DNA of 64,000 nt from Macrostomum lignano (Eukaryota): assembly GCA_002269645.1 (NCBI GenBank), contig NIVC01001704.1, forward strand, positions 1 through 64,000, written 5' to 3'. How positions within the stretch are numbered: position 1 is the stretch's first letter; every line of letters begins with the position of its first letter. Below the pieces are notes generated by a model. It searched no databases and was not told where the DNA came from. It saw only the letters and a list, made by a program, of their open reading frames with translations. The position numbers and the translations under genes were made by a program. Positions 21,302 through 46,681 of this stretch are shown in pieces.

Positions 21302-21984
21302 TTTGCCGACCACGCTAAAAGGTTATTTAGAGGGACCTTGCCAGGATATTCTTGATAGCTGCCCAATTATTATGTCTGGCGCATAATTCAGCAAAAGCTG
21401 ACACAGCACCTAGGTTTATTATTGACTTATTGAATTATTTATAATTTGGACATGCATGTCATTAATTTAGTGGGACAGTGGCCAGTTGACTTTTGAAGTC
21501 ACATTTTCAGCGCCAGTCAATAAAATATTTGTTTAATATTTTGGCCACAGAAACTTTATATTAAAGAGGTACCTCAGAGAGTGCCACACAAGGTGACCAC
21601 AAATTAAGTGGTAAGGCAATATTTCGCGCGAGCCAAATCCACCCCTTTAGTGAGCGCATTGCATGGTTCGGTCGTGGAAGACTCAGGAAAGCTCGAGACT
21701 AACCTATTCAACCATTTTCTTTCTTTAGGCTACATATTACCTGTTCAACCTGTTCTTGGGACTAGCCACCCTGGTATTATTCGTTACCGAATAGCCGGTC
21801 AAAGTGCTCCAAGTAATCTTCAAACTTCCGAACCGAGTGACGTGCACACAAAAGGACCTAAGGTTGCTGTGAGTTATATATATATATATATATATGAGAT
21901 ATTTGTCCCACTATAGCAAAAGAAAAATGAATATTATTATGGCAGTCTATTAAATTTATATTTCAAGACTATATCAGTAAAAGA

Positions 21985-24900
21985 TTGGCCGACGCATTAA
22001 AAATCACGTGGAACAGGAGTGATATAATTGCAGTAGGCGTGGGAAATTCCCAGCTTCAGTTCATAGGAAGAGGTACAATTCACTTAGAGATAGGAGGAAA
22101 ACAGCATATGGTCGAAGTTCAGATCATCAAAGAAATGAATCCAAGCTACGACATAATACTGGGAGTAAACCTTCTAAAGAATATTCCTCCAGTCCAAATA
22201 GATTACGGAAACAGGAAGATAGTGATCCATAAATACGAATACCCGATGGTAGGGTCAGTCGAACAACAGGAATCACACGAAGTGGCACTCCTTGAGAATA
22301 TTAGAATTCCTGCGCAGAGTGTGATGAAAGTACCAGTCAAAATTTTGGCACAAGTGGATCGAGGAACTTTATGGATCGAACCGAATGAATTCAATGCTGA
22401 AAGAAATGGATACGAAATGTGGCCAGTTTTGGTGAACCACAAGGTAGAGCATGATCAAATGGTTCTTCCCATAATGAATCATCGTCAAGAAGAAATTCAG
22501 CTGGTTAGAGGAACGAAGCTTGGTCGAACAAGGGACTTGGTGAAGCAAGCGGCACAGCACGATTATATCTGTACAGAAGAAAAGGAGAGGCTAACCCCAG
22601 AAGAAAAATGGAATCTGATAGAAAAAGGCGAAGATTTGAATCAGCAACAGACAGAAGAACTGCATAGACTTATATTGGAATACTCTGACGTGTTTTCCGG
22701 ACATGATTCGGATATTGGGAAATGGACAGGACCAAGCGTCAAATTGGAGGTTAAACCAGGCCAAGGAATAATCAATCGGAGACCCTATCCTTTGCCAATG
22801 AAGCTAGAATCTGCATATGACGATGAGATCGCTAAATTGCTCAAGGCAAAGGTAATCGAACCGTCGGACTCCTGTTTTTCATCGCCAACGCTTCTTGTGA
22901 AAAGGAAAGATGGCCGCTTCAGATTTATAGTTGACTTTCGACTAGTAAATCGCATGCTCAGGCAACCTGCTCAGAGTCTTCCAAAAATCCAGGACATGAT
23001 GAGCCGACTACAGAACACGAAGTATTTTTGTGTTTTTGACATTAAGGATGCATTCTTTAATATTGGATTGGATGAGGATAGCCGACATCTAACCGCCTTC
23101 ACGACGTATACAGGTTCGCAATATCAATTTACGCGCCTACCACAAGGATTAAATGTTAGTCAGATATATATGTCAAAGGTGACAAATATGTTGGTTGCCG
23201 GTCTCAAAAATACTATCGGATACGTTGATGATCTACTGCTTACAGCGAGCACGTTCGACGAGATGCATAAAGCTTTAAAAGATTTGTTCACGCGACTGCG
23301 CAGTTTGGGACTGAAACTACGAGCGTATCAGCTAAGAAGTCTGCAATTGCCAAGGACAAAGTGCCGTATTTAGGCTTTGTGCTAAGTAAATCTGGCATCG
23401 CGATGCAGCAGGGCCTAAGGACAAAAATAATTGACTTTCCCACACCCAAGAACGAAAAACAGTTGCAAAGATTCTTGGGAGCTGCGACATTTTACCGCAG
23501 ACATGTGAAAAATTTTAGCATGATTTCGGCTCCATTATATCAGCTTCTGCGAAAGAAATCACAGCCAAAGAAATTCACTTGGACAGAAAAGTGTCAAGAG
23601 GCTTTTGATCGTCTGAAGAGATGTTTACAAGAAGACGTCGTGTTAGCTTTTCCAGACGTAAGAAAAGAATATAAACTAGTAACAGATGCATCAGATGTCG
23701 CATTGGGAGCAGTTTTGACGCAAAAGGATGATGAAGGAAGAGAGAGAGTTGTATCCTATTATTCCAAGACATTACAATCGGCAGAAACTCGGTATTCAGT
23801 CACCGAGAGGGAACTACTGGCAGTTGTTTAAGCAGTAAAATTCTTTCACAGGCTACTCTTTGGAGCTCGATTTACGGTGCAAGTCGATCACAAGCCGTTG
23901 CTGACGATAATAAAAGATAGAGGTATTATGGAAACAAACTCACGAGTAACGAGATCAGTTCTGTTTCTTTCTGAATACCAGATGAAGATAACTTACTGTC
24001 CTGGAAGCTCGACGAAGCATGCAATTGCTGATTATTTAAGCCGACTTACACCAGCAGACGTAGACGAAATCAACTTAATACATCCTGTCCCATCGACACA
24101 GAAGATACAGCAAGAACAGAGGAAAGACTCCTCTCTGAGCAAATTGATTAAGGTGATGGAGGGTGGAGACTTACCGAATGGGAAATCGAAAGAGGATAGA
24201 TTTATCAGGAAGAATATTCATCAGTACAGGATGGAAGGAAACACGCTTTATCGGGAAAGCATTACTGGAGTTCAATTGGTTGTTCCAAAAGTGTGTCAGC
24301 TCGCACTGTTACGACATTATCATGAGGATAAATTATCAGGACATCTCGGATGGCAGAAATGTTTGGAGCGCATGGCGCGACATTACTATTGGAATTCAAT
24401 GCGGCAGGACATGCAGAAGTACGTAAGAAGTTGTCACACATGTTTGAGTACAAAGCGGTCGGGGAATTATAAAATTCCATTCAAGGCTCAGATCGAAGGG
24501 GAGCCTTGGGATACGATGTCAATGGATATCACTGGAAAGCTCGTAACGTCAGAAGTTGAAGGACATGAATTTAATTACATATTGACAGTGCAGGATTGCT
24601 TCTCAAAGTTTGCTTTTGCAATTCCGATTCGAAAACCAACAACGGAAGTGCTTGTAAACAAATTGTTCAGTCATATCTTTGCCACCTTCGGAATTCCAAA
24701 AAGAATAATAACAGACAATGGAAGCTACTTCACGAGTGCTCAGATGAAAGAAATGATGGTGATGATTGGCTGTGAGATCGTCTATACAAGCTATTACACT
24801 CCGCATGCGAATGCAGTCGAACTTTACAACAAACTTTTAAAGAATGTTCTGACCACATATATTCATGAAACACAGACGGAATGGGCAAGATACGTGCCAA

Positions 24901-25503
24901 CGGCGACTTTAGCCCTGAACATAAGCTATAATAAAAATCTTCGAACTTCCCCATGAGCTCATTTTTGGCCATGCATACAAGACCCCCACCGAAAGAGTTC
25001 TAAAGGAACAGGTGTCTGTTTATGACGAAGCCCCAAGTTATGTAAAGAAGCTAGCTAGTTCCTTGAAATTGAGTTGGGATGTTGCAGGCCATTTTCTACT
25101 TCAAGAGCGTCTCAAACAAAGTGAGCAAGCGAACAAAGGAAGAAAAGATCATAAATTGTCTGAAGGAGACATCGTATATTTGGAAAAACCTGTGAAGGAC
25201 GGAAAATTCGACACAAATTGTGAAGGCCCCTTTACCGTCAGGAAAGTGATAGGCGATTCCACAGTTGCAATTCAAAGACCGGAAAATGAACAGAACGAGG
25301 AAGCTAGAACAGTAAACGCCAATAGGTTGAAGAGACTATTGTCAGGCCCACCAATAGCAGTTCCACCATTCTCTGAAGAAACCAATGGCAACACAACACA
25401 TGATGCGCATAAAATCAGATTGCACAAATCCAACGCCACGCAGACAGAAGTAACAGAGGAATCAGCTTGTAAGAGATTCACTTTGCATCCACGCAAGAAC
25501 TAG
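21985..25503 (+). pseudogene. pol: Gypsy pol: partial protease, RT, RNase H and integrase. Frameshift at about 23330, stop at 23829-23831, frameshift at about 24955
   Basis: DIILGVNLL, FIVDFR.VN, YVDDLL, TDASDVALG, DHKPL, H..GH.G...C..C, MDITG, TDNGSYF and AVELYNK. Confidence 0.93.
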
Positions 25504-25507
25504 AACC

Positions 25508-25882
25508 ATGAATATCCTGAACGACTTTGAGCGCCGAGCATGGATCTACCATAGGATCCACTTCTTTCAAAGGTTCTCCCCCCTACTGCCGGGTTATAAG
25601 GAAAGGGTAATACCCATCTTGGAAGATATCCGAACGGAAGCACGTAGACTATACGAACCGGGAGTTTCTGAAGTAGAATTCAGAGAGCCGCCACCGACAC
25701 GGCCGATTGATGTATACAAGACGGAGCTCCGCAATCTCGCTGACGATATGTACGATGACGAATATCGCGAGGGACGCATTATTTGGGAGCTGATAGTTAT
25801 CTGCTGCACCAAACTACTTTCTCTCCTAAGAAACGAGGGTAATGCGAATACTACTGAAGAGGACAGCTCAGAGGACAACTGA
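25508..25882 (+). CDS. Accessory ORF of the Gypsy, unknown function
   Basis: 124-aa ATG ORF starting 4 nt after the pol stop (ACCATG), before the PPT. Confidence 0.55.
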   Translation: MNILNDFERRAWIYHRIHFFQRFSPLLPGYKERVIPILEDIRTEARRLYEPGVSEVEFREPPPTRPIDVYKTELRNLADDMYDDEYREGRIIWELIVICCTKLLSLLRNEGNANTTEEDSSEDN

Positions 25883-26106
25883 AGCTCAAGTTGAGTCGGA
25901 CAACATAAATCGAAGATCGCAGATGGTTTTGAGGTGAGATTGAACGAGCTACATCGCTATATCCAGAATGATAAAAGCTTTACGAGATTAAAATCATTCG
26001 CTCATACTTACAGCTATTTGCTTTCATACTAGTCTCAATGATTTTTTCATCTCCATATTTTACTAAATGAAAATGTGGGGACCACATTTTGAAAAAGGGG
26101 GAGTAA

Positions 26107-27010
26107 TATAAGGATTCAATTTCATATGCATGTAGGCCTTAGGGACTATTTAGGGACTATTTTAGGAAGTAGTATTAGGGACTAAATTAGGCAATAATTA
26201 GGGAATTGCATTGTTATCAGAGCGTGGTGGAGTGTAGCAGTTGTGGACAGCTGCACTCTTACAAAAAGCCACAAGTGCTTGATGACGGCATTGCAAAGGG
26301 CGAGTGCAGGCCGCCCTAAAAGTCTGCTTCCACTTTAGAGGGGTTGTATGCTTTATGTGGGGCGGGGTTCAATTACATTTTTAACAGAGACATTTCAGAA
26401 ATCGCACGAGAAAGGGGAACCGTGAGAATCGGCCGGAATTGCGCGGTGGCTGGAAGACGTGGGAAATGATAACGCAGACAGTTTCACAGGGACTTCATCG
26501 GGGAAATTTATTATAAATAAGCGAGGGGTTAAATGCTAAAAACTTTACCCCTTTTCTCACTCTCTTTTCACTCTCTTTTACACGCCTTGTATTAACTTTT
26601 GGATTGCTTAATAGTTTCTAAATCACGACGACCGCTTCTGCAGACACCTGTGACCGGAGGGTAAGACTGAGCACTGCCATGACTATAGATTTATGAATAG
26701 TGGCGTATCGGTCTCAGACCAGGTAGATATGCGTAATTTATATGTCTATGTATATATATATATATATATATATCTTAGATTAATAGGAGTATTTGAGTAG
26801 CTTAGTTATACCGTAGTGTCTCAGACTTATTCTCCGTGCTTGTATCTCGCTTATTTGCTTATTTACTTATTAATACAAACGTTGAAAATGCAGTAGTAAA
26901 TATAATTATATGGTTGATCGGTAAATAACATCCAAGCATATTCTACCTCGTTTGAATTACTATTAATCATATGTAAGGTTCTTAGTTTGCGGCCAACTAG
27001 GAAACTTATA
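26107..27010 (+). repeat. 3' LTR (TATAAG...CTTATA)
   Basis: Follows the PPT; near-identical to the 5' LTR except in an AT microsatellite. Confidence 0.92.
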
Positions 27011-27519
27011 TTCGGGTGATGCCGCGAAAGACCTCTACCGGCTTTGTGGTCTGAAAAACGAGCGGCAGCAGCTCCCGGCATGTAGAACTGGGTCTCCAGG
27101 CCAGAGTTCGCAGTCCGTTTTCGTGTTTGTTCCACTTTTCTGCCCTGCCGAAGATAATTGCGGCATCCTTGCATTCGAGGGCCTCCTTCGAGACACTTCG
27201 TTGTTGCTAGGCGGCTGTGGGACTAGTCCCTTATATAAGCCTCAGCAAATGGCATGCAGCTGTAGCCCGGATGAAAAAACAACATTCCGCATGCTTTTAC
27301 CAAAATGTCAAAGGGACAACCCGCGCCCAGATTTTTTCAAATTTTGCATGCAATTAGCAAGACGATAATTTTTTCATTTTAATGGCGAATGACAGTTGGT
27401 CTTCTTAGAAATCCTTTAAATAGGAATGGTCTACTAATGGAAAGGGGGATGATAAATGCAGTCAAGACTGAAACAGTTGGTGCCAAGGCTGAAAATGCCA
27501 CTAGGGGAACTGTGTCAGC

Positions 27520-29460
27520 TGTTGTATATATAAAAGTTAGTGGGGTTAAGACGAAGAAGACAGTTGTAGCAAGGGATAAAGATGATGGGGCTGATCGCTC
27601 ATTCCTTCAGAATCAAACAACCGCACGCTCCGTTCGATAACAGCAACTCTATATAAAAGGAGAGGGGATGCAGTCTAACAAATCCAAATTAGCCGCGTTC
27701 CAAAAGAATTTTTGAATATAAAGATAAAAAGATTATTTTTATCCAGCAAAGCTATGGACAAGACGGCTCAACAAAAAGCCTTAGCTGAGCGGTACGTCAA
27801 AGAAGGTGAGCACAGTTATATATTCGACTTTATGTTTAACAAATATCTTTAAACGATCTTACAGTAATGTTTTACATTTCTACCTCTTCCAGCCAAAAAA
27901 ACGGGGTATTTAACAGACCCCACCTGGCTACGAAGGTACGGTCGGAATATATGAAAGAGGAAATGTACGCGTGGAGATCGTTCTGGTGTCGACGAGTACC
28001 GGGAGGGACGGCTATCGGTTAAACATCGACGATGGAAGAAGTGCTGGGATAAAGACAGAGGAGTATTTTGATCTAACGACAGACAATTAACTGAACTGAG
28101 GTTTGATCGGAACATTGAACTTTGATGTAATTTAATAGCATATAATCTTTGAAAAACAACTGATGTACGTACGCTGTTTTATAGTTTCTTGTGTATTTTT
28201 TATCTATAGTAAAACGAGTAAACCGCAAATAAATTTAAAATTCTAAAATTTAAATTTAAATTTCCCAAATAATAATGGGAAAGTTAGCATCGATGGCGAT
28301 AAAGTGTTAAAAATGAAGAATGGGCAAATGACATAGCATCAAGCACACGGAAATTACATTTAAGCATTAAGCTACAATTTAAAATAAATTTAAGCAGTAT
28401 GAAGAGTTACAGAAGATAGGCGGGGTCTGCTGATCGCAGATACAAAAATATTAAAAAAATGTAAAAAAATTTGCACCGTGTTGTTGTTAGTACCGTTCCA
28501 TTGGAAATGCCAATCTAGTAACTATTGCTTACACTGTATTTTCGCAAACTACTCTACTTATGCAATTTAGTAGTATGATGCCAACAATTCATTTTTACAT
28601 GATTTTAGGAACTGAACCTAAAATGATTATTTCGGTCGTCTATACGTTCTTTTTATCACCCTGTCGTACATGTATCTCATCCTGTCTTATCTTACCCTCG
28701 TCTTGTCTTGTAGTTCAATAAATTGTGGTTCCTATCACACCAGAGCCTGGGCAGTGAGGCCTTGCATCCGCTGCGATGGAACGCTATCTAATTCTATTGA
28801 CTCTCCAGTTTGGTTTGGCGACTCTCATCCCTCATTGATACTCTGCAGGGGAATCGCGTGCCATTCGCGTTGAGGGGTCGATCCGTGGGATAGTGCAGAC
28901 CTGTCTCTTGGGTTGGTTGTCCACTTGCTGAGATTGAAGGCGACTGCGGTGGCGTTCTTGATCGAGCCGCGCGCGATGCGCTGATGTTAAAAAGGATGAA
29001 ACAATGAAACAAAACTGGAGAACATGAGTTGAAATATTCACATAGGCAATTTAAACCTACCAAAACTTGTAGCAGCGAACAACCCACGATACTAGCGAAT
29101 AGATGAACACAACAACAACTTTGTTGCTGTTAGCAGTCCGACTGGTTTTTCAGTGCCACTGAATGATGCGGACTGCAACTGGTGCTTTGAAGTGCGACTC
29201 AGCGGCTGTGTAGAGCCATTGAATTTTGACTGGAGTGCCACAATAGCTCGAGTGAGTGCGCGCATCTGGTTAGCCTGGTTCCTTAATGCAATGATAATCT
29301 GTTGTTGAATCATTGTCTTGCTTTAAATGCGATTTTAGCGAAATACTCCTGTCCTACACGGCTACACTCCTAAACTTCTTAACACAGTGATTTAAGCGAT
29401 TTTAAAGAGAGCGAAAGAGGTCTTTCTTATGAGATCGATAACAGGGGACGAAGAATAACA
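27520..29460. repeat. Diverged duplicated block, copy 1 (copy 2 at about 35368-37110)
   Basis: Shared runs such as AAAAGTTAGTGGGGTTAAG, GTCTAACAAATCC, TCAAGCACACGGAAATTA and TTATGAGATCGATAACA in the same order. Confidence 0.85.
27893..28090 (+). pseudogene. Coding exon of an unknown small protein (1-nt shift near 27915)
   Basis: Translates to PKNGVFNRP..PGYEGTVG...VEIVLVSTS.G..GYRLNI...IKTEEYFDLTTDN*, matching 35781-35978 with many synonymous changes. Confidence 0.55.
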
Positions 29461-29554
29461 GCGGGTGTACGCTGGCGCAGGCGAGAGGCAGACTGTTGAA
29501 TAATGTACATTTGTGCTGGGGGCGGGGTGATAGGAAAAGTCGTACGAGCGTAGT

Positions 29555-29911
29555 ATGTCATGTAGCCGCACCTTTACATGTAAGAAATGGTGCCGTATCA
29601 AACCCGACGCCGCGCGATGTTTAAATGTTCACCATATTCGCACCCTAACCGCTATAAGTATCGAGCAGCGACTGGAGTTTTGGCCAGTCCCTCGCTTCAC
29701 TCGACGATCACGTAACGAACTGCTTCTTTACGCACATAACGCTCAAGGCATATTGCGACACATGTTACCTTTTGACATAGAACGTCATCTAAGACAGTTT
29801 TTGCAGGCTCATAACGAGTTTCATTGGACATTGCATATCTATTGTCATGCGTTACAACGGTTAATTAGGTCACGTAGTTATTTTATATGGCTTTTACGAT
29901 CTGACTACTAA
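29555..29911 (+). CDS. Hypothetical 118-aa protein with a weak F-box-like LPxDIxxxLxxFL motif
   Basis: ATG ORF directly upstream of the RING gene; motif match only. Confidence 0.3.
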   Translation: MSCSRTFTCKKWCRIKPDAARCLNVHHIRTLTAISIEQRLEFWPVPRFTRRSRNELLLYAHNAQGILRHMLPFDIERHLRQFLQAHNEFHWTLHIYCHALQRLIRSRSYFIWLLRSDY

Positions 29912-29980
29912 GATATGTGCTGGTTATGTATGCAGGATAGCCCCTGACTATTTTATAATAACAATACGTTTCACCCGCAG

Positions 29981-30616
29981 ATGGCCAAGAACACACCATG
30001 TCCATGCTGCCTCGAGATGCGGGATTTCATGCTCCCGACCTGCGAGTGGGGACACCAAGTGTGTCTCCCCTGCGACACAGCAGCCCGGCAACTAGAAGGC
30101 ACAGTCACGATGGTAACGACGTGTCCAACGTGTCGCAGAGCGAGGGTCACCTGTGCCCTGTGCGGCGAACAGCCCCAGTTCCGGGTTTGTGCGAACCGGC
30201 ACTGGGTCTGTGCTGACTGTCTTCGAAAGTACGGTGCACGCGACATTCAAACGTGCACCGTGTGTATGGAGGCGGTGACACACTCGACAGTCCTTTTGCT
30301 GGCTTCTATGTCAGCAGTGCCTGAGCTGTCGCTCACCAATCCCGACCTCATGACGTTAGAACAGTTGGCGATTGCCGTTCGGTCGTGGCCCTGGCCGCCC
30401 TAGCACCAGGCGTCGTGGCGTACCGTGCTCAACATCGCACGGGACCTGGCGCGTGAGCACTCGGAGCTCACCGCCGTCGACGCCTACCTGTATCTGCTGG
30501 AGCGGACAGAAGACCCTCGCTTCGTCAGGTTTCAGTCGTTGACCTGGGCCGTGGCATGCCTGGCTGCGCGGTCTGCGCAGCAGGTCTCCACCGTGCTCAG
30601 GCTTGGATTCGGCTGA
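29981..30616 (+). pseudogene. Tandem RING-HC (C3HC4 x2) protein with a helical C-terminal domain; in-frame TAG at 30401-30403
   Basis: CPCC..CEWGHQVCLPC..CPTC and CALC..CANRHWVCADC..CTVC. The frame continues past the TAG, and the paralogue at 32133-32390 has a sense codon there. Confidence 0.8.
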
Positions 30617-30827
30617 ACGTCTCGGTAGCACAAACATCGGACAGACGGCGGAGAAAAAGGCCAGCTCCATTTCACTGTTAATAACTTTAGACTAGTACTA
30701 ACCCTTACTGACATATTCAGTGTAAAGTTGACAGTGCTAAATATACTCCCTATATAGAAACTTTACTCATGCATTTTCTGTCATTATTAAAACTCGGGAC
30801 GAGTTTTTTCGTAAAAAAGGGAGATGT

Positions 30828-31858
30828 TGTAGAGTATTATACCCCCCAGAATAATACTTAGACTACTTATATAGTAGTAAAATGAGGAGCATGAATAAGG
30901 AGATGCGCTGAACCATATATATATTTGAATCAACCAATAGAAAGAGAGAAATCTCGAGCATGCGAATTTTAGAAATCACCCAATCTCGTGTGACCCGCGC
31001 TTGTCAGCTTAAACCCCAGGGGAGATGCATCATTCAGCATGCACTCAAGTGAACCAATCAATCAAATTTAACTAAAAATAACTCAAATGCTGTAACCAAT
31101 CATGCGTTTTTACACTAAACCAATGGAGTAACTTTCTAACCTGCCATGTTTGACAGCAAGCAAACCGTGACCCTTTAACAGTTGAGAAGTCGAACTCACG
31201 TGACCTCATGTGGGGTCCGTTTGCCTATAAATACAAGTGGTCCAGAGCGGACCGGAGCCTCAGATTTTGGACTCCAGAAGGAGCAGCTCCGAGGAGGAAG
31301 CCACTAGAGGACTTCCTAGCTAAACTCGCTCGAGTTCTTGCGGTAAGCCTTTCTCATTTGCGCCCGTTGATTGAGACGTCTCACTTGTGTTGGGTTAGAG
31401 TCTGTTGAGACTATTGAGTCTATTGAGACTCCATTGGCAGCAGTCTCCAGAAGGACTACCCTGATAGATCTTGGTAGACTATCAGTGATTACCGGAGCTA
31501 CACCTAGAGTGCATAGAGGCACTGCTAGAAGGAGTAGGCTTGACTTAAACCGCAGTTTTGGCGCAGGGTACCCATTGTTAATACGAAGCTTCCTATTGGT
31601 CCGAACTACAGATACTGGCCGGAACTACTTAACCAGAAGTGAAAGGAACTCGGACCTGGTCTACTAACCCTAGACGACTAGAAGTTGACGAAATCTACAT
31701 CGAGATCTACGCTCGAGGTCGACCCAAGAAGTATCGAGGAAACTACTCCGGAGTTAAGGTAACAGATACCTTCATTTGATTACTGGGTTGCCTAGCTAAA
31801 GAGCTAGAAGTAAGTGTTCTTTGATTACAGATAAAGTCTAGTAATAAGGAACACATCA
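30828..31858 (+). mobile_element. 3' LTR (TGTAGAG...ACACATCA) preceded by a hairpin and PPT
   Basis: AAAAAAGGGAGA just upstream; same termini as the 17170 LTR. Confidence 0.85.
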
Positions 31859-32129
31859 TTGGTCCGAACGACCAACTACTTCAACTACTTCAACCGAAGG
31901 ACTACCAGAGATTCGGACCTGGTCATCAAACCATCGACGTGTACGAAGAAGAAGATTGAGAACTACTCACGGTAGAGATCGACACGAGACCTACCAGAGA
32001 ACAACTAAGGGATATCTCAACTGAAGTCAAGGTAAACAGTACCATTACTGATAACTGGGTTGCCTAGCATCGAGCTAGAAGTGGTGGTTCCTTGATTACA
32101 GAGAAAATCTGGTAATAAGGAACACATCA
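31859..32129 (+). mobile_element. 3' part of another LTR of the same family
   Basis: Starts TTGGTCCG (an internal LTR site) and ends GGAACACATCA. Confidence 0.75.
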
Positions 32130-32132
32130 AGC

Positions 32133-32390
32133 TTGGCCTTCGAGCAGTTGTCCATCGCCGTCCGGTCGTGGCCGTGGCCGCACCGGCATCAGGAGTCGTG
32201 GCGTCACGTCCTTGGCATTGCCAGGAGCCTGGCTCGCGAGCACCCTGGGCTCACGAGTATTGACGCCTACCTGATGATACTCGAGCGCACAGAGGAACCG
32301 CGCTTCACACGCTTTCAGCCGACATTCTGGGCAGTGGTATGTCTGGCTGCGCGCCAGACAACAGCCGTGCTCAGAATCGGTTTCGGCTGA
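32133..32390 (+). pseudogene. 3' fragment of a second RING-gene copy
   Basis: EQLSIAVRSWPWP...LRIGFG* is homologous to about 30358-30616. Confidence 0.85.
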
Positions 32391-33395
32391 TCGTCCGAGC
32401 GGCATCAACACAGGGGCAAGTGTCATCTGCATTTATCTGATGATAACTTTCCATTAACTCTGACAGAACTATCCACTACTAATGTATACAATGTAACATA
32501 CCGACAATATAAATATATACCATATCAAGTTCAAGAGGTTTCTGTAAATTTATATTATTATTCAAACTCGGGACGAGTTTTTTGTAACATGGGAGATTTT
32601 GTAGAGTATTCAGCCTCTCTCAAAAATCCATAAAATTGTTAACGTACTACTTATATAGTAGTAAGACAAGTAGCATGTATAAAGATATGCACTAACCCAT
32701 ACAAATAATTTGATCAACCTAGAAGTGATCAAATATCTAAAAATAACTGAGCTGCTGTACCCTATCATGCGCGCTTACACTAAACCAATGAAGTAACTTT
32801 CTACCATGCCATGTTTGACAGCAACCAATCCGTGAACCTTTGACATTTAAGACAATGAACCTCATGTGGGGTCCGATTGCCTATAAATACAAGTGGTCCA
32901 GAGCGGACCCGGAGCTTCAGATTTTAGACTCCAGAAGGAGCAGCTCCGAAGAGGAAGCCATCAGGAGACTTCCTACCTAGACTCGTTCGAGTTCTTGCGG
33001 TAAGCCTTTCTCATTTGCACCCGTTTTTAGAGTCGACTCGTATTGTTGTTGAGTTAGAGTCTGTTAAGACTCTTGAATCCATTAAGAATCCATTGGTCGT
33101 AGTCTCCAGAAGGACTAACCCTGATAGATCTTAGAAGACTATCAGAGCTTACCGGAGCCATACCTAGAGTGCATAGCAGCGCTCTAGAAGGAAAAGGCTT
33201 TCTAGAAACCAAAGTAAGGCACAGGGATCCCATTGTTAATTCGAAGCTTCCTATTGGTCCGAACTACAGATACCACACCGGCCGGCAAGAAGTCAAGGAG
33301 CACAAAGAAGACTCGGAACAGAGACAAGAAGTAAGGCGCCAGATCAACTGATCTAACTGAATCCTATTGCGAGATCAACTCACAGGAAGAGCACT

Positions 33396-35120
33396 TGTAG
33401 AGTGTTCTACCTCCCGTTAAAAAAAGGTTAAAAGAAGATAATCGTATAATGCTACTACAAGTAAGTAAGTACACGCATGTGCGCCTAAGCTTTGAATGAA
33501 TCACGCTACCAGGAAAAGATGTTACCAAAATGATACGCCATGAGCCATTTTCCCCTTTTAGCGCAACACGTGGTTTGTAATGATGCTATTTTGGATCAAA
33601 AAGTTGCCTATAAATACAAGCGGTCCGAAGCGGACCAGGAGCCAACTCCCGACGAGAGGAGAAGCTCCGAAGAGGAAGCCTTAGGAGGACTTCCTGATCA
33701 CCAAGTCAATCGAGACTCGGTCGAGTTGTTGCGGTAAGCCTTCCTGATTTGCGCCTGTTGTGTTAGAGACGTCTCGCTCAAGTCTATCGAGACTTGAATC
33801 TATTTGAGTCTGTTGAGACTCTTGAGTCTGTTTAGACTCCATTGGTTGCAGTCTCCAGAAGGACTGCCCCTGATAGATCTTAGAGGACTATAAGTGGTTT
33901 CCGGAGCCATACCTAGAGTGCAGAGAGGCACTACTAGAAGAAGAAGGCTTAATTCAGACCGCAGTTTGGCGCAGGGATCCCATTGTTAATTCGGAAGCTT
34001 CCCATTGTGTAGAGTGTTCTACCTCCCGTTAAAAAAGGTTAAAAGAAGATAATCGTATAATGCTACTATAAGTAAGTAAGTACACGCATGTGCGCCTAAG
34101 CTTTGAATGAATCACGCTACCAGGAAAAGATGTTACCAAAATGATACGCCATGAGCCATTTTCCCCTTTTAGCGCAACACGTGGTTTGTAATGATGCTAT
34201 TTTGGATCAAAAAGTTGCCTATAAATACAAGCGGTCCGAAGCGGACCAGGAGCCAACTCCCGACGAGAGGAGAAGCTCCGAAGAGGAAGCCTTAGGACTT
34301 CCTGATCACCAAGGCAATCGAGACTCGGTCGAGTTGTTGCGGTAAGCCTTCCTTATTTGCGCCCGTTGTGTTAGAGACGTCTCGCTCAAGTCTATTGAGA
34401 CTTGAGTCTATTTGAGTCTGTTGAGACTCTTGAGTCTGTTTAGACTCCATTGGTTGCAGTCTCCAGAAGGACTGCCCCTGATAGATCTTAGAGGACTATC
34501 AGTGGTTTCCGGAGCTATACCTAGAGTGCATAAAGGCACTGCTAGAAGAAGGAGGCTTAATTCAAACCGCTGTTCGGCGCAGGGTACCCATTGTTGATAC
34601 GAGGCCTCTGATTGGTCCTGACTGAAGATACCGGCCGGAGGAACTTATCGGAAGTACAAGAGGAACCAGGACCAGAGCAACTGAAGAATCAAGGCGCCTG
34701 ATCTACGAGATCACATAGAGACAAGCGAGATCTACTCGAAGACTACAGAAGAGATATCTCCAAGCGACGTCAAGGTAAGAAGTACCTTTAATTGACTTAC
34801 TGGGTTGCCTAGCTATTGAGCTAGAAGTGAGTGTTCTTTGATTACCATAAGTCGGGTAATAAGGGACACATCAATTGGTCCGAGCGACAGAATCCGGCCG
34901 GAACTAATTGAAGAAGAAAGAAGAATCGGACCCGATCTACAAACGATAGTCAGAAGTGACTGTACGAGATCAACTGAAACTAATCGAGAGCTACTCCGAG
35001 AGATCTCCAAAGGACTCAAGGTAATTGAATACCTTCTGTTGACTTACTGGGTTGCCTAGCTACTGAGCTAGAAGTGATTTTTCCTTGATTATCGAAAGTC
35101 GGGTAATAAGGAACACATCA
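33396..35120 (+). mobile_element. Nested solo LTR, TSD CACT, itself interrupted at 34008-34873
   Basis: CACT at 33392-33395 and 35121-35124. Confidence 0.92.
34008..34873 (+). mobile_element. Innermost solo LTR, TSD ATTG
   Basis: ATTG at 34004-34007 and 34874-34877; nearly identical to its host LTR. Confidence 0.92.
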
Positions 35121-35238
35121 CACTAGTCAGGACTCAAGGTAATAAATACCTTCGTTTGATTACTGGGTTGCCTAGCAGTAGCTAGAAGTGATTGTTCCTT
35201 GATTACTAAGAAAGTCTTGGTAGTAAGGAACACATCAT

Positions 35239-35367
35239 ATACGCTCGCATTTTATTCGGGGTTTTACAGGCGCATTGTTGGGGAGCTTACGATCGGGAGA
35301 TCTTTTGGTTGTGGACGATCTGCAAAGCGAGATTGCTAAATCTGCCGACTTCACGGCTGTCTTCAAA
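35239..35367 (+). pseudogene. Fragment of a Polinton packaging ATPase (third element or rearranged B)
   Basis: HFIRGF...LRSGDLLVVDDLQSEIAKSADFTAVFK versus NLIRGF...LRPHDLLVVDDLQSEMAKSPEFTAIFTK in element A. Confidence 0.85.
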
Positions 35368-35780
35368 GAACTGTCAGCTGTTTTATATACAAAAGTTAGT
35401 GGGGTTAAGAAGAATAAGTCAGTTGTAGCAAGGACTAAAGAAGATGGGGTGATCGCTCATCTCTTCTGAAACAAAAAACCGCACGCCCGGTTCGATATCG
35501 CTAGACTTGCAGGTCGTGATGGCCCACTCTGTTGGGCCAACTCTATATAAAAAGGAGAGGAGATGGAGTCTAACAAATCCAACTTAGCCGCGTTCCAAAA
35601 GAATATTTTATCAATTACAATACTTCGAGCGAATACTACGGGCGAATGTATGGAAAAGTCGGCATAAAAAGGCCTTAGCCGAGCGGTATGTCAAAGAAGG
35701 TAAGCAATTATTTGACTTTGTGTTTAACAAAAATTTTTAAATGATCTTGCAGTAATGCCCTGCATTTCTACTTCTTGCAG

Positions 35781-35978
35781 CCAAAAAACGGGGTATTTAA
35801 CAGACCCCCACCGGGCTACGAAAGCACGATCGGAAGGGTTAAAGGAGGACAAGTAGGCGTGGAGATTGTTCTGATCTCAACGAGTAACGGGAGTAACGGC
35901 TATCGCTTGAATATCCACGAGGAAGGAAGTGCTCAAATAAAGTCGGAGGAATACTTTGATTTGACGATGGACAATTAA
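35781..35978 (+). CDS. Coding exon of an unknown small protein (intact copy)
   Basis: Protein-level conservation with 27893-28090. Confidence 0.55.
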   Translation, partial: PKNGVFNRPPPGYESTIGRVKGGQVGVEIVLISTSNGSNGYRLNIHEEGSAQIKSEEYFDLTMDN

Positions 35979-38851
35979 GTGAAGAAAGGCTGAGGTTTGA
36001 ATCGATACTTTAAACTTTGGGCTTTTTATGTAATTTAATAGAGGCTTTGAAAAACAACTGTTGTACGTAAGCTGTTGTTTTAGTTTCTTGTATATTTCTT
36101 TTATAGCTAAAGTAAAGCGAGTAAACCGCAAAATAAATTTAATTAGTAAAAAATGTAAGCAATGCAAGCAAAACGTATTAGGAAAAAGACGCATAATATA
36201 TAGGTGTGGTTGATAACGGTAGAAAATTGGTAGACAAGCACCCACTATACAGTCTTAAATTGAAAACTTGTGTCTTTTGTTTCTTTTGGCAAGTTGAGCC
36301 AAGAATTGTCTTGGTGATTTTTTCCAGTGCGCTGCTTCGGAGCTTTTTTAAGAGCCTTGTCTTGTAGCGAGAGGGAGTGTACGTAGCTTGTGGGCTTCGA
36401 TTAAGGGTAGTGCATTGGAGTAGGTTGAACATTTGGCTAAGTACGAGTTATTGAGTAGTAGGAAAGGCTTTGACCGCATACCAATTATAATACTGTATTC
36501 TTATTTGTGCAATACTTGAGTTTCTATTCAGCGCTTAATACGAATTTTGCGCACGGCAAACTTTGAACAACGTTTATTAGAGACACTCCAATTAATGCTG
36601 AAGAATAGAAAGTTTAAGCTAGACAGAGGGTCTTAGCAACAACACGTTAATAATATAAAATTAATCAGTAATATTGGGAAAGTAAGCAACAATGGCCATA
36701 GGCATAAAAGGTTAAAAAAAATAAAAGGAGTGAGCTGAGGTCGTACCATCAAGCACACGGAAATTAAATTTGAAAGTAAATCTAAGCAAGATTAGCAGTT
36801 GCATAACATAAGTAGAGGTCTGCTAATCGCAGGTGCAAAAATAAAAGCAAAAAAATACTAGGGCTGTTAGCAGTCCGACAAGTTTTTCGTTGCCAATAAA
36901 TGAAGCGGACTGAAATTGGTGCTTTGAACTGCGAGGCCCAGGTTAGCCAGATTCCTTAGCGCAGTAACGATCTATTGCTGAATCATTGCTTTGCTTTAGA
37001 TGCGAGTTTGGCGAAATACTCCAATCGTAAACTTCATAGCACACAGCGATTTAAGCGATTTTATAGGGAGCGAAAGGGGTCTTATGAGATCGATAACAAG
37101 GGGAAAAGCAAAATATGGTGTATTGCCGTTACTTTACTGTACGCCCGCCGCTCCCAATGTAGGTAAAGCGTCAAACTTTGCATCATGTAAAAGAAAACAA
37201 AATTTCGAACAATCTGGCGAAAAATTATCATTTTAAGTGCAATTGATCCAGAGTTATAAGCAGTTTAGCTGCAATGCAAACTTTAAAAAATTGCCATATA
37301 TTTCGAGTGTTGTGTCCTTCTACTTAAGTAGTCCTTGTTGCGAACCCATATGCGAACATTCCTATTTAGCCAATTCGTTCATATGATATTTATGCAGCAC
37401 GCCACGGCCTTTTGCGAAATAATACTTTTTGTGGTGCTTAAATAAAAAAACGAATTAATAATGTACAAAAGGGGTTTTGCACATTTTGAAGCGAGGGGGA
37501 GGTGTATTAGGGCGTAATTAAAACCCGGATAGATTTGCTTTTACACTACTAACAGTAGTTTCCAGTAGCAGAAATATCGGTAACTGTAGCAGAAACAGTT
37601 GAGGTTTTGGGGGAATCTTTATAAATACAGGGTTACCGAAATTTAGAAACAGCTGAGAGAGTTAGTATTTTTAACCATATGTAAAGTTCTTAGTTTGCAT
37701 CGCGCTGCATCCTAGATACGAGTGCGACGGCTATGAGGTCAATACAATGAGGTCCTGAGGTCAGCACGGAATTTACGAAGAGAAGGCTGCGCGCAAGTTC
37801 AAAGGGACCCAAGGACGCTACATGTTGCTCTTTCAACTGCATTCCGTGTTTGCAGCCGCAGAGAGCAACGTCTGGCGCGCCAGTTTCGCGTTGCAGTCAT
37901 AGAGAGTGGCGAATGCGACCGGATAGGCAATCGGGTGGAGCTTGGCGTCCGTATTTCCTGGCTGCCGCACTCAAGTTCGGGTTCCGTCGCCGGGAGCAAG
38001 AAGCAAGCTTCGAACCAAGACGATGCTACTGAGGATCACCCAGCTTTGAAGCGGGTCGCGACTGCGACCCGAAAGAAGACACCGGCACCAAGCGCCGGCA
38101 AGATACGTACAAAGGCGCCAGGCAAGATGGTGGCGACCAAAGACATTGCGCGATGCCAAATCTCGAACTCTGATGAGGAGTCCAATGCCACCGAACAGGA
38201 GTGAGCAATGTTCGTTTTATTTAAATTCCATGTCAGCACAGCATACCTAAAGCAACGGCAAGCATGTCTCAAGTCTAGTGAAAGTCAACTCAGCTTTACT
38301 TGTTTCAGGCATAATTTGTTTGGCTGCTTGTCTGCTGGGTTCGAAGATTTGCGTGATTTTTAGGCATGGATTTCGCTGCATTACTCGCTTGCGATAACTA
38401 AATGCCCAACGTAGTGCCGTCACCCAAAATCGAGAACACGCCCTTCCTCGGCCACCTCACTATGAGACATGCTTGCTGCAAGGGCTCAGGCAAAACGGTC
38501 TTTAATGCTGTTGCGTTGGCGGCGGCTGCGATAGCAGTATAGTATGGAGCATTCCACCATCTACTGCTGGACCGGAAGCGTCTCATGGAACAAAGGAAAT
38601 CAAAATTTTAGTAAAAGATTTACTTAGTTGCTAAGGCATTATCGTATAAACTTTAGGCGAACAAAAAACAGATTACTCGGATGAGGATGCCACAGGGGAG
38701 CATCCAGACGCCGTTTGAAATAATTACATGTATGTACATTATAAAAAATATGTATCGTTGGCTCGCATTAGTCCAACTTTAGAGTCGAAAATTCTTGGCT
38801 TTTGTAAGAAATACTGGCTGGTCACAGCCCCTATTTTACGTCCTAGATGTC

Positions 38852-39133
38852 CTAGGAGTCCCTGGCTTTCCCGCCTAGTTTCCAGTCCCAGTCCAGCGGA
38901 GATCTAGGAGTCCCTGGCTTTCCCGCCTAGTTTCCAGTCTCAGTCCAGCGGAGATCTAGGAGTCCCTGGCTTTCCCGTCTAGTTTCTAGTCTCAGTCCAG
39001 CGGAGATCTAGGAGTCCCTGGAGTCTCTGGCTTTCCCGCCTAGTTTCCAGTCCCAGTCCAGCGGAGATCTAGGAGTCCCTGGCTTTCCCGCCTAGTTTCC
39101 AGTCCAAGTCTAGCTGAGATCTAGGAATCCCTG
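38852..39133. repeat. Tandem repeat, ~52-bp unit, about 5 copies
   Basis: CTAGGAGTCCCTGGCTTTCCCGCCTAGTTTCCAGTCCCAGTCCAGCGGAGAT repeated. Confidence 0.92.
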
Positions 39134-40186
39134 CTTCTGCGCATCGAAATTGCGCAGCTCCTAACTGAATCAGTGACAGTAAACAGCAGAGCAAGCGCTC
39201 GAATGCAATACACTAAAATTATTTTTCGCCACTAACCTAAACTACTTGATAAAGAAATTCATAAGTAGAATAACTTGGACATTATTGTGCACAATTTGTT
39301 TTCGGCTATGTTTTACGAAAGATCTTGAAATTAAAAATAAAAATGTTAATATGGATTTAAATATAGAATATAATCTTCTATTCAGATGGCTCATGGCTAC
39401 TCTTAAACTTCAAAACTAGAACACAGCAAAATAGTGCATTTGAACATCAATATATTGACCCAACTGCTTTGACAAGCTGCTCTCGAAGAGCAGATCAGAG
39501 CAGAAGAACAATAACTGCAACGATTAGCACGCACAAAAGCTATCACAAAGCACTATCAATACTAATAGTTATTCAATTCGATACCAAATGAAGCACAAAA
39601 GCTCTCGAAAAACTTACCAACTCGAACCTGAATCTCACTAATATGCAATATAAAGCTTGCAGTATCTGAACGAACGAATTCGCGGACGCACGCAAGCGAC
39701 TGTAGCCTCTGCTGTGGCTGTGAATCAGGCAGCCGAACCCCATGCAAGCCGAAGCATAAAAGGTTAAGAAAGAGGCAGAGAGGAGTGTTCCGCCTCTACA
39801 GATGCAGCCTCCCCCCCCCACCTCCCCAGGCTCCCCTTCCATTCGCTGCAGCCACTGAATACAGAGATTGCCGCGCAGACTGATGACTAATGCGTCAAGC
39901 ATGCCTGCTGGTGAGTCACAGAACTGTTCCAGCTTCACCCTCTGGGGCCAAGGCCGCCACTGTCTGGGATGGTCTGGCTGGCTCAAGGCTCTGACACAGT
40001 TCTGGCCCAGATCTGTGCAAAAAGCGTTTAGGTTCCAAATAATCTGGAATCCAAAAAGCCTAGACTAGACTTCAGGCAAGTTGTAAGTGGGTCTGTCAGT
40101 AATCGAATCTCTATTAGGCTTTTCAAAGTTCCGATTCCAGAACTAGGAATGGATTGGAGCCTTGCAGTTTGCTTGGTCCAGATCTG

Positions 40187-40840
40187 AAACTGTGTGCTCT
40201 GTTCTGGAACTGTGTGCTCTGTTCTGGAACTGTGTACTCTGTTCTGGAACTGTGTGCTCTGTTCTGGAACTGTGTGCTCTGTTCTGGAACTGTGTGCTCT
40301 GTTCTGGAACTGCTGCTCTGTTCTGGAACTGTGTGCTCTGTTCTGGAACTGTGTGCTCTGTTCTGAAACTGTGTGCTCTGTTCTGGAACTGTGTGCTCTG
40401 TTCTGGAACTGTGTACTCTGTTCTGGAACTGTGTGCTCTGTTCTGGAACTGTGTGCTCTGTTCTGGAACTGTGTGCTCTGTTCTGGAACTGTGTACTCTG
40501 TTCTGGAACTGTGTGCTCTGTTCTGGAACTGTGTGCTCTGTTCTGGAACTGTGTGCTCTGTTCTGGAACTGTGTACTCTGTTCTGGAACTGTGTGCTCTG
40601 TTCTGGAACTGTGTGCTCTGTTCTGGAACTGTGTGCTCTGTTCTGAAACTGTGTGCTCTGTTCTGGAACTGTGTGCTCTGTTCTGGAACTGTGTGCTCTG
40701 TTCTGGAACTGTGTGCTCTGTTCTGGAACTGTGTGCTCTGTTCTGGAACTGTGTGCTCTGTTCTGGAACTGTGTGCTCTGTTCTGGAACTGTGTGCTCTG
40801 TTCTGGAACTGTGTGCTCTGTTCTGGAACTGTGCTCTGTC
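40187..40840. repeat. 20-bp minisatellite (AACTGTGTGCTCTGTTCTGG)
   Basis: Direct inspection. Confidence 0.97.
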
Positions 40841-41650
40841 AAGACTTGCTTAGGAATTTTTCAAAAGGCCTCGGAACAAGCGACAACACTTCGATCGATT
40901 GAAATCAGCCTTCAAGCCTGGCATGCAGATGCAGGCCTGTTTCTCAAGCACACGGAGTCAGAGGTAGAAGGCATCGGTCTACGAGCGTAGGTTCAATTTT
41001 ACCCTCTGCGTTTACTTTTCCATTCGTTTACTGACAGACTAACCAGCAGCCGCTGCCTCCCTTGCCAACCAGCGATTGGAAATCAAGTAGGCCGAACAGG
41101 GGCTCGCACTAACCATACGGAAGTTCGGCCATTTCATTTTCGCCAAGACACGGAAGCCTCATCCGGCAGCGGGACAGGCGAGAGATGGGCGGCAGTGGAT
41201 TGACTAGCGGAGTTCGCGCGGCTATTCAATCGCAAAAGAAAGATTTAGGGAGAGAGAGGGGGGGGCGCACGGAGGAGATGCAAAGATAACTTTTCAGGGA
41301 GCTAAATTTGGACGAGTGAAAGTACTGCAGCCGTCGCGCCGAAGGGGAGGGCAGTTTCCAGTTTCCAGTGTTTCCGAGACTCGATGGGGCAGTTAGGAAT
41401 TCGGACAGCGGGGCTGGGGGCACTAGAGAGGCAGGGAGGTTGCCGAAGCCTCTGCCGAGGCGGCAAGTGCTTTCCCGAATTCCGAATTCTGCGCCCGGCC
41501 GGCCGCCCCCAGTTAAGCCTTCAGACAGCCGGTCAGCGAGGGCCACTCGGCCAGAACCCATAAAAGACGGCCAAAGATCAGCAGAGCCGGACACAGACCA
41601 GAGGCATTCAGAGCTACTATGCGAGTGCACTTTGACTCGACGAACCCTGG

Positions 41651-42151
41651 ATGCCCGCGATCGAAACTTCTGCCGGCTCGCCACAGCCGCAGTCGACCAC
41701 GCCGCAGCCGCAGCCTCTGCAGCTTCAGCTGCACCAGATGCCGAAGACTTCCAGCGCGCTGGCTGTCGGGGCCGGGTGGCCAGTTTGGGCGGCGCACCTG
41801 CTTGTTGTGGTCGCCTGCTTCGCCCTGCTGTGCGTCAGCTTCGCAGCCTACCATCGAAAGCAGCTGCGGGTGGCTGCGGCCAAGCGGCACCGGCTAGCGA
41901 TGCGCGGCCGTACGAAACTGCGTATGATGTCCAGCGTGTCCGGCTGCGCGACCTTCGGCTCCGACGGCAACGGAGGCCACCCGAACGCCTGCGGCTGTCC
42001 GCTGCGGCTCAGCGCCGACATGGGCGTCCCGTTTGGCGGCTCGCTCGGTGGCGCCGGCTTCGCGGCGGACTCCGGCAAGCGCAAGGGTGGCGGCATGCTG
42101 ATGTTCGACTTCCGCCGGCAGTCGGGCAGGGGCGGCCCGAGCGCGATGTGA
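41651..42151 (+). CDS. Putative single-pass membrane protein, 166 aa, copy 1
   Basis: Hydrophobic WPVWAAHLLVVVACFALLCVSFAAY followed by basic HRKQLR; GC-rich codon usage. Confidence 0.55.
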   Translation: MPAIETSAGSPQPQSTTPQPQPLQLQLHQMPKTSSALAVGAGWPVWAAHLLVVVACFALLCVSFAAYHRKQLRVAAAKRHRLAMRGRTKLRMMSSVSGCATFGSDGNGGHPNACGCPLRLSADMGVPFGGSLGGAGFAADSGKRKGGGMLMFDFRRQSGRGGPSAM

Positions 42152-42302
42152 CGGGCGTGACTGCGCCGGAAGCCTCTGGCCACATTGTCCCATTGTAATT
42201 CCTCACTATAAATTCTGCCTTTAATGCTCTGCTATGCAGCTTGAAGTCTCGATTGTTTCAATTCAGTGAACAGCGTTGATTGAATTGCGTGCTTTATTTG
42301 CG

Positions 42303-43117
<815 letters not shown>

Positions 43118-45755: not shown

Positions 45756-46061
45756 TTGTGGGTAGGAAGGCTTGAACAGGAGCTAGCAGAAGAACTCTGT
45801 GATATACTTTACTTCTGGGCTTTTAGGGTGTGCACCCGATTCAGCAAAAAAGAAATTTGTCTATAGACTGCTCTGCAAAAGGCCTTTGGGCTTTTAAGCG
45901 ATCTTACAGAACCAAGCTTGGGCGCGAAGTAACATTTGTTACTGTGGTAACTTGGCCTGCGTGCGCGTCGGGGGTGGGTGCTGGGTTTAAGTTTTTTTAT
46001 GTCTCTCACTCTCGCTGAATGTACTTTGCTAGCGCGGGGTGGAGATTAGGGTGAGTCAGGC

Positions 46062-46681
46062 GGGAGCACGAGAAATGCCCGCAGATGAATTGCCCGCCGA
46101 GATTTGCCCGCAGGAGATTTGCCCGTGGAGATTTGCCCGCCGAGCTTTTCCCGCGGAGATTTGCCCGCAGTGCATTTTGCCCGTGAGCGAATTGCCCGTG
46201 GAGATTTGCCCGCCGAGAATTGCCCGCCGAGATTTGCCCGCAGTGCAATTTTCCCGCGAGTGAATTGCCCGCGAGCGAATTGCCCGCCGAGTTTTTTCCC
46301 GCCGAGGTTTGCCTGCAATGCTTTTTTGCAGCGCATTTGGCAGCTAGATTCTGTCTACATTGCTCCCCCCAAAATATGCATTTGATATGCAGTTACTATC
46401 AAAACGTTTTGATCGTGTAAATCTCTTTATTGAGATTAACACGTACAAAGCATTGGGAAGGCAATGCAGACAAAATCTGACGCGTGGCTAAATGCGCTGC
46501 AGGAAAAAAGCATTGCGGGCAAACCTCGGCGGGAAAAAACTCGGCGGGCAATTCACTCGCGGGAAAATTGCACTGCGGGCAAATCTCGGCGGGCAATTCT
46601 CGGCGGGCAAATCTCCACGGGCAAATCTCCTGCGGGCAAATCTCGGCGGGCAATACGTCTGCGGGCAATTCTCATGGACCC
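46062..46681. mobile_element. Mutator-like MITE: long TIRs built of TTGCCCGC repeats, GGG...CCC ends, 9-bp TSD
   Basis: GAGTCAGGC at 46053-46061 and 46682-46690; the arms are reverse complements. Confidence 0.85.

What the first reader, a model, noticed from the sequence alone, without database searches (positions are those of the whole stretch)
29981..32600. LTR retroelement family carrying a tandem-RING (putative E3 ligase) gene at its 3' end
Seen: two back-to-back C3HC4 RINGs plus a helical domain. Two diverged copies are each followed about 200 nt later by hairpin, PPT and LTR, and differ with many third-position changes, so the gene evolved under selection while attached to the element. 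Established: RING-HC domains are E3 ligases, and many viruses use them against host defence. I do not know this as standard Gypsy cargo. The TAG in copy 1 is probably a nonsense mutation, though readthrough is not excluded.
Basis: partly seen in the sequence, partly recalled or inferred. Interest (0 to 1): 0.7.

Follow-up and report, generated by a model that had tools for sequence, protein, structure and literature searches.

The report
Flatworm retroelement carrying a double-RING gene
A family of jumping genes, probably from a small marine flatworm, carries at its tail end an extra gene for a likely ubiquitin ligase (a protein-tagging enzyme) that was conserved while it travelled with the element, although both copies seen here are broken and the element's own replication genes were not seen.

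Summary
Copy 1 (29981-30616) has two C3HC4 RINGs plus a helical domain, with a real stop at codon 141. Copy 2 (32130-32390) keeps only the helical half. Both are followed about 210 nt later by the same hairpin, a purine tract and a TG...CA LTR. The LTRs are genuine: three solo copies have perfect 4-bp target duplications. The shared 84 codons give dN/dS 0.26. A Macrostomum lignano gene model (P0001) independently strings exons from this LTR family onto three more diverged copies, twice joining an LTR splice donor straight to the RING start codon; the window copy has an acceptor at that spot. So the RING is inherited 3'-end cargo, probably made from an env-style spliced RNA. RING1 keeps the linchpin arginine in 7 of 7 homologues, so E3 activity is likely but untested. 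Not shown: gag/pol, primer site, clade, expression, substrate. The DNA upstream may be Polinton, so a Polinton origin or a non-autonomous element stays open. Extra 3' ORFs are known; ten literature searches found no tandem-RING one. New variant, moderate interest.

The parts
29981..30616 (+). Copy 1 of the RING-RING-helical gene (211 codons), interrupted by TAG at 30401-30403
   Evidence: exact contigs in runs X1 and X5
29999..30136 (+). RING1, C3HC4, ending C-P-x-C-R (linchpin arginine)
   Evidence: profile hits to SIAH1, TRIM21, RING1B, E about 1e-4
30152..30265 (+). RING2, C3HC4 with an 8-residue first loop, no linchpin arginine
   Evidence: profile hit to BRE1 RING, E 1.6e-4; separate model pLDDT 80.7 matching RING structures
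30353..30613 (+). Helical C-terminal domain of unknown fold family, candidate substrate-binding part
   Evidence: pLDDT falls below 50 after residue 186; best VIA Z 5.8, not distinctive
29974..29980 (+). Splice-acceptor-like site (CCCGCAG) directly before the RING ATG
   Evidence: sequence; P0001 joins LTR exons to the ATG of two other copies
30789..30824 (+). Hairpin (30789-30807), T-run and polypurine tract (30813-30824) before LTR1
   Evidence: same layout at the 3' end of the unrelated Gypsy element in the window
30828..31858 (+). LTR1, 3' LTR of copy 1; TGTAGAG...ACACATCA; TATA box 31226; splice donors near 31343 and 31759
31859..32129 (+). 3' remnant of another LTR of the family, into which the copy-1 element appears to have inserted; it in turn abuts copy 2
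   Evidence: 70-76% identical to the matching part of the other five LTR ends; junction bridged by exact contigs in X1, X5, X11
32130..32390 (+). Copy 2: helical half only, no RING, open to its stop
32564..32596 (+). Hairpin (32564-32580) and weaker purine tract before LTR2
32600..35237 (+). LTR2, 3' LTR of copy 2 (32600-33395 and 35125-35237), split by nested LTRs
33396..35120 (+). Solo LTR nested in LTR2, 4-bp target duplication CACT
34008..34873 (+). Solo LTR nested in the previous one, 4-bp target duplication ATTG
17170..18392 (+). Solo LTR of the same family inside a Polinton capsid gene, 4-bp target duplication TTCG
35248..35364 (+). Polinton packaging-ATPase fragment flanking LTR2 (target DNA, not part of the element)
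   Evidence: 64% identical over 39 aa to the ATPase at 9177-9293, E 8e-10
29549..29911 (+). 120-codon ORF upstream of copy 1, no homologue found, affiliation unknown
27513..29447 (.). Region X: small genes on both strands, repeated at 35372-37102; Polinton arm or element interior, unresolved

Best explanation
An abundant LTR-retroelement family of a Macrostomum flatworm carries, in at least some of its lineages, a roughly 210-aa RING-RING-helical gene as its last internal ORF, in the position where env or other ORF3 genes sit. SHOWN: genuine LTRs; the gene, 3' UTR, hairpin, purine tract and LTR descend together; purifying selection on the helical half; both fingers fold as RINGs; both window copies are dead pieces of a nested pile of insertions. 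INFERRED (likely): the gene is expressed like env, from the 5' LTR promoter by splicing from a conserved LTR donor to an acceptor just before the ATG; RING1 binds and activates E2~ubiquitin, RING2 is a structural or partner finger, and the helical domain binds a substrate. INFERRED (weak, about 0.35): the substrate is a host silencing or restriction factor, so the protein works like a viral counter-defence ligase. Component odds: cargo of the LTR family 0.85; spliced expression 0.65; active E3 0.75; carried by autonomous gag-pol elements 0.5.
For: Three solo LTRs with exact 4-bp duplications, 3 of 3 with both flanks present. Identity in aligned columns between copies: coding 79%, 3' UTR 77%, LTR 82-88%. 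Hairpin and purine tract precede both RING-linked LTRs and none of the 3 solo LTRs. dN/dS 0.26, Fisher p 3e-6. P0001, labelled M. lignano, alternates LTR-derived stretches (86-93% aa identity to window LTR 33564-33734) with copies 63-72% identical to copy 1; its LTR stretches are closest to the nested LTR subfamily, not to LTR1/LTR2 (61%), so the linkage spans subfamilies. Its two RING starts follow exactly the last codon before the GT of LTR donor 1 and donor 2. Donor 1 is invariant in 5 of 5 aligned LTRs, about 115 nt after the TATA box. RING1 ends C-P-x-C-R in 7 of 7 sequences tested; an arginine there positions donor ubiquitin (PMC12326332, section read). Four Logan clusters share the tandem-RING layout at 29-33% identity.
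Against: No gag, pol, primer-binding site or complete element in the window, and no genome to search. P0001 is a predicted gene model whose DNA I could not see; its splices may be predictor choices. Region X upstream of copy 1 recurs after a Polinton ATPase fragment with no RING or LTR behind it and holds a sense-strand intron, which fits a DNA element better than a retroelement. No Pfam RING model reaches its curated cut-off and no Foldseek hit reaches E 0.001. RING1 lacks the aromatic residue usual on the E2-binding helix (recalled feature). The context of P0002-P0006 is unknown.
Confidence: 0.62

Rival explanations
1. The carrier is a non-autonomous LTR element (no gag or pol) whose main cargo is the RING gene, mobilised by enzymes of a partner family; the gene may have been taken from a neighbouring Polinton arm. 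It is still LTR cargo, but not 'Gypsy with an ORF3'.
For: No gag/pol seen. P0001 shows LTR and RING alternating with no pol-derived exon. The family inserts into Polintons. Polinton-type viruses carry zinc-binding accessory genes (PMC8502044, passages), and one adintovirus 'Oncoid' appears among weak fold hits (rank 41, E 0.42).
Against: A spliced gene model would skip gag-pol as an intron. The Polinton at 1100-15800 has no homologue of the gene. Both window copies are 5'-truncated, so missing pol is expected.
Confidence: 0.25
2. The gene belongs to the host or to a Polinton; an LTR element once inserted behind it and the pair was later duplicated as DNA.
For: RING-like depth is low compared with LTR depth; region X looks like DNA-element sequence; the window has segmental duplications elsewhere.
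Against: A solo insertion would not bring a hairpin and purine tract at the right distance; the 3 true solo LTRs lack them. At least four copies 57-72% identical in protein sit beside LTRs of two subfamilies. No intron in the coding sequence.
Confidence: 0.09
3. Copy 1 is functional through stop-codon readthrough, or as a 140-aa RING-only product.
For: The frame stays open for 70 codons after the TAG; the stop is present in two independent runs.
Against: The 4 other close copies covering the position have a sense codon; the stop falls inside the conserved helical domain; the element lacks its 5' LTR promoter.
Confidence: 0.04

Closest known systems
Bdelloid rotifer LTR retrotransposons with non-envelope ORF3 (Juno, Vesta; PMC5408684, abstract and passages read)
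   Same: A family-specific extra ORF of about 200-250 aa at the env position, enzymatic rather than fusogenic, shared between different element types.
   Different: Their ORF3s are GDSL esterase, DEDDy exonuclease or transmembrane proteins; 'RING' and 'ubiquitin' occur 0 times in that text. Their gag-pol is known.
Burro/GYPSM1 giant Gypsy elements of planarians (PMC6431247, passages read)
   Same: Flatworm LTR elements carrying domains tied to ubiquitination and apoptosis (MATH/TRAF, BIR, BCL2, SUMO-like), proposed to meddle with host systems.
   Different: Domains lie in a 4,873-aa polyprotein or an upstream ORF of 30-kb elements; the only RING mention is an AIR1 motif; no stand-alone 3' tandem-RING gene.
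Macrostomum lignano Ty3/Gypsy families (Mag, CsRN1, Gmr1/Osvaldo; PMC12801592, parts 1-2 of 6, term passages and supplements)
   Same: Likely the same host; 129 of the 137 curated families are Ty3/Gypsy.
   Different: No RING or extra ORF is mentioned in the main text; this LTR's motifs were not found in the supplement text held, which covers only six families and is cut.
RING-HC E3 ligases (SIAH1, TRIM21, RING1B, BRE1) and viral RING ligases such as herpesvirus ICP0
   Same: C3HC4 ligands, RING fold, linchpin arginine in RING1.
   Different: Two RINGs six residues apart plus an unassigned helical domain; no full-length match; activity untested. The counter-defence role of ICP0 is recalled, not from a call.

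Membership tests
LTR retroelement | Terminal repeats with TG...CA ends | tested here: met
   Five starts TGTAGAG and six ends ACACATCA in the family
LTR retroelement | Short target-site duplication made by integrase | tested here: met
   4-bp duplications at 3 of 3 solo LTRs with both flanks
LTR retroelement | Polypurine tract just before the 3' LTR | tested here: met
   12 of 12 and 9 of 12 purines, 3-nt spacer, preceded by hairpin and T-run
LTR retroelement | Primer-binding site after the 5' LTR | tested here: inconclusive
   No 5' LTR with its interior is present; LTR ends are followed by target DNA
Ty3/Gypsy (Metaviridae) | gag and pol with PR-RT-RH-IN order | tested here: inconclusive
   No match to the window's other Gypsy pol in 27013-39600 or 43170-64000; copies are 5'-truncated; no genome
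Ty3/Gypsy (Metaviridae) | Reverse transcriptase groups with a Gypsy clade | not testable with these tools
   No RT of this family was obtained; a 4-bp duplication fits Gypsy (recalled)
RING-HC E3 ligase | Eight C3HC4 zinc ligands per finger | tested here: met
   Both fingers in 7 of 7 sequences tested; RING2 first loop is 8-9 residues
RING-HC E3 ligase | RING fold | tested here: met
   Profile hits to solved RINGs for both fingers, E about 1e-4; Foldseek probability up to 0.99-1.00 but E above 0.001
RING-HC E3 ligase | Linchpin arginine in RING1 | tested here: met
   7 of 7 (definition)
RING-HC E3 ligase | Linchpin arginine in RING2 | tested here: not met
   0 of 7 arginine, 1 of 7 lysine
RING-HC E3 ligase | Ubiquitin transfer activity | not testable with these tools
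   Needs an assay
RBR (RING-between-RING) ligase | IBR domain between the two RINGs | tested here: not met
   Only six residues separate the fingers; definition recalled
Polinton accessory gene | Lies within a Polinton, between its terminal inverted repeats | tested here: inconclusive
   No homologue in the window's Polinton genes; both copies end in purine tract and LTR; upstream region X may be Polinton

The most novel reading that the evidence does not exclude
A previously undescribed class of retroelement accessory gene: a stand-alone tandem-RING E3 ligase at the env position, made from a spliced subgenomic RNA, belonging to an old protein family also carried by mobile elements of other organisms (P0002-P0006), and used by the element to destroy a host silencing factor, as complex retroviruses and herpesviruses do.
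Probability: 0.27. Interest if true: 0.82.

Novelty: new variant of a known kind. Interest (0 to 1): 0.52.

Why it matters
Few transposon-encoded proteins that act against host silencing are known in animals (own knowledge). An element-encoded ubiquitin ligase under purifying selection would be a direct handle: its substrate would name the host factor the element needs removed. M. lignano has transgenic and RNA-seq tools (PMC12801592), so the question is testable. The protein family is also uncharacterised: 5 hits among 1.84 billion representatives, only one of them named.

Tried and rejected
No genome held. Word-index protein searches: 0 hits at near length with the single sequence, 2 with the alignment, both already in it, 1 among longer proteins, P0001. 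Viral contigs: 0 loci in 4 scans. Metagenome contigs: 2 loci from 58 candidate stretches, both chance matches without the cysteines. ESM Atlas: only RING-like leads under 0.9; nothing for the upstream ORF. Rfam: 0 matches. Exact look-up of 6 window proteins: 0 of 6. Helical domain: no distinctive fold match, best Z 5.8. No RNA holder listed; in the one laying (4 of 24 runs, all contigs) no LTR-donor-to-RING joint was among the joints shown (31 not shown) and X19 had no cover over the gene: no evidence either way on expression. Rejected: the doubled LTR ends as tandem repeats (they are nested insertions); copy 2 as a short LTR-primer site-PPT-LTR element (its flanking LTRs are 71% alike in the shared part, no closer than other pairs; the primer-site likeness was recalled only and not tested); canonical heat-shock elements (0 in the five LTR stretches scanned). 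A first dN/dS (0.28) included 9 LTR-derived codons and was replaced. No complex prediction was run. Literature: 10 searches; none listed a paper on an LTR element with a 3' RING gene, judged from listings except the five papers opened. Subscription papers and Repbase were not searched.

Full report
Setting. The window is eukaryotic repeat DNA. It holds a Polinton at about 1100-15800 (PolB, dUTPase, nucleoside kinase, ATPase, chromodomain integrase by Pfam; capsid and protease by my reading of the translations), reversed pieces of a second Polinton at 16299-20347, an unrelated Gypsy element at 20386-27012 with 98% identical LTRs, and the finding. No genome is held. The closest named record is labelled Macrostomum lignano; since it matches both the gene and the LTR, that genus is the likely host (inference).

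The gene. ORF 29981-30616 has 211 codons with TAG at codon 141. Two C3HC4 patterns lie at aa 7-51 and 58-95; 0 of 20,000 shuffles gave two. Pfam hits are below cut-off (Sina_RING E 0.0015, zf-C3HC4 E 0.047), but a profile of 7 sequences finds solved RINGs for each finger: SIAH1, TRIM21 and RING1B for the first, BRE1 for the second, E about 1e-4. The AlphaFold model (mean pLDDT 70, 73-90 over most of the RINGs) matches RING structures with high Foldseek probability but E above 0.001; RING2 alone does the same. The helical half has no distinctive match. The stop is real, being in exact contigs of runs X1 and X5.

The LTRs. All begin TGTAGAG and end ACACATCA. Three solo copies have exact 4-bp target duplications: 17170-18392 in a Polinton capsid gene, 33396-35120 inside LTR2, 34008-34873 inside that one. 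So the region is a nested pile. Copy 1's element ends at 31858 inside another LTR, whose remnant ends at 32129 inside the copy-2 gene; copy 2's element ends at 35237 against a Polinton ATPase fragment. The left halves of these three insertions are missing, which I read as a deletion (inference). The junction at 32129 is bridged by exact contigs in 3 of the 4 runs laid.

Linkage and selection. Homology between the copies runs from coding sequence (79% of aligned columns) through the 3' UTR (77%) into the LTR (82-88%). A hairpin, T-run and purine tract precede both LTRs, as at the 3' end of the other Gypsy element, and precede none of the three solo LTRs. Over 84 codons the differences are 21/13/36 by position; pS 0.51, pN 0.20, dN/dS 0.26 (bootstrap 0.13-0.49), Fisher p 3e-6. 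This covers the helical half only. The HMMER search of 1.84 billion representatives gave 5 hits. P0001 is a 660-aa gene model in which LTR-derived stretches alternate with two RING-bearing copies and a third partial one (95% like the first); the distinct copies are 57-72% identical to each other and to the window's. Its LTR stretches are 86-93% identical to the nested subfamily and 61% to LTR2, so the gene travels with two subfamilies. I could not see the DNA behind this model. Contigs show at least one more variant over RING2 and one over the helical half.

Expression, inferred. Four of five aligned LTRs have TATAAA and all five an invariant donor about 115 nt downstream. In P0001 both RING start methionines follow exactly the last codon before an LTR donor, donor 1 in one case and a second donor nearer the LTR end in the other. 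The window copy has an acceptor-like CCCGCAG directly before its ATG. This is the layout of an env-type spliced subgenomic RNA (recalled). No transcript evidence was obtained.

Biochemistry, inferred. RING1 ends C-P-x-C-R in 7 of 7 sequences tested, down to 29% identity; RING2 has arginine there in 0 of 7. A cationic linchpin positions donor ubiquitin in RING ligases (PMC12326332, outline and one section read). So RING1 is the probable catalytic finger. The substrate is unknown; counter-defence is an analogy to viral ligases.

Against. No gag, pol or primer site was seen, so 'Gypsy' rests on end features. Summed depth in X1 is 317-621 over the gene and 7,788-110,222 over the LTR (not a copy number), so close RING copies are few and LTRs many, as expected from solo LTRs, RING-less lineages, or RING copies under the 80% threshold. 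Region X upstream of copy 1 (27513-29447) recurs at 35372-37102 behind the Polinton ATPase fragment with no RING after it, and has small genes on both strands, one with a sense-strand intron and weak coding signal (p 0.05). It may be a Polinton arm; where the element's interior begins is unresolved. P0002-P0006 come from 1-2 kb Logan contigs with no context; scans with three of them found nothing in viral contigs.

Comparison. Extra ORF3 enzymes are known in rotifer LTR elements (PMC5408684, abstract and passages), and planarian Burro elements carry ubiquitination- and apoptosis-related domains in a polyprotein (PMC6431247, passages). The M. lignano LTR survey does not mention RING in its main text (PMC12801592); its supplements hold six of 137 consensus families, cut in the copy I searched, so this family may already be catalogued without the ORF being noticed. 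Polinton-type viruses carry zinc-binding accessory genes (PMC8502044, passages). Three unchecked notes of this scan report a RING inside the polyprotein of dinoflagellate Copia elements, a different arrangement; I did not test them. Ten searches found no report of a 3' tandem-RING gene in an LTR element; subscription journals and Repbase were outside them.

Verdict. Works like an env-position accessory gene encoding a RING ligase. Member of the LTR retroelements by its ends; Gypsy membership and autonomy unproven. New variant of a known kind; interest 0.52.

Noticed in passing
window 31858 and 34008-34873: Two independent insertions of this family hit the same spot (within 1 nt) in the 3' part of another family member's LTR, and others hit its own RING gene and Polinton genes: a possible self- and Polinton-targeting preference.
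   Followed up: partly
window 1101-15800: Largely intact Polinton with nucleoside kinase, dUTPase, PolB bearing an endonuclease VII domain, an adenovirus protein X-like gene and a chromodomain integrase.
   Followed up: partly
window 16299-20347: Reversed pieces of a second Polinton (integrase, capsid gene), about 66-72% identical to the first, split by a solo LTR.
   Followed up: partly
window 20386-27012: Unrelated Gypsy element with 98% identical 0.9-kb LTRs and a broken pol; it too has an extra ORF (25499-25882, 127 aa, no Pfam hit) between integrase and purine tract.
   Followed up: no
window 27437-29447 and 35372-37102: Two diverged copies of a compact cluster of small genes on both strands, one with a conserved GT-AG intron (27756-28090); pS 0.35 against pN 0.19 over 54 codons.
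   Followed up: partly
window 47822-64000 and 39937-42568: About 9.5-kb near-identical segmental repeats, with a 334-339-codon minus-strand ORF (47824-48843, 57395-58399) that starts with a signal-peptide-like stretch.
   Followed up: no
window 46061-46682 and 56065-57133: Long inverted repeats, foldback- or MITE-like.
   Followed up: no
window 38852-39133: 52-bp tandem array, 5.2 copies, at the end of the Polinton-flanked stretch.
   Followed up: no
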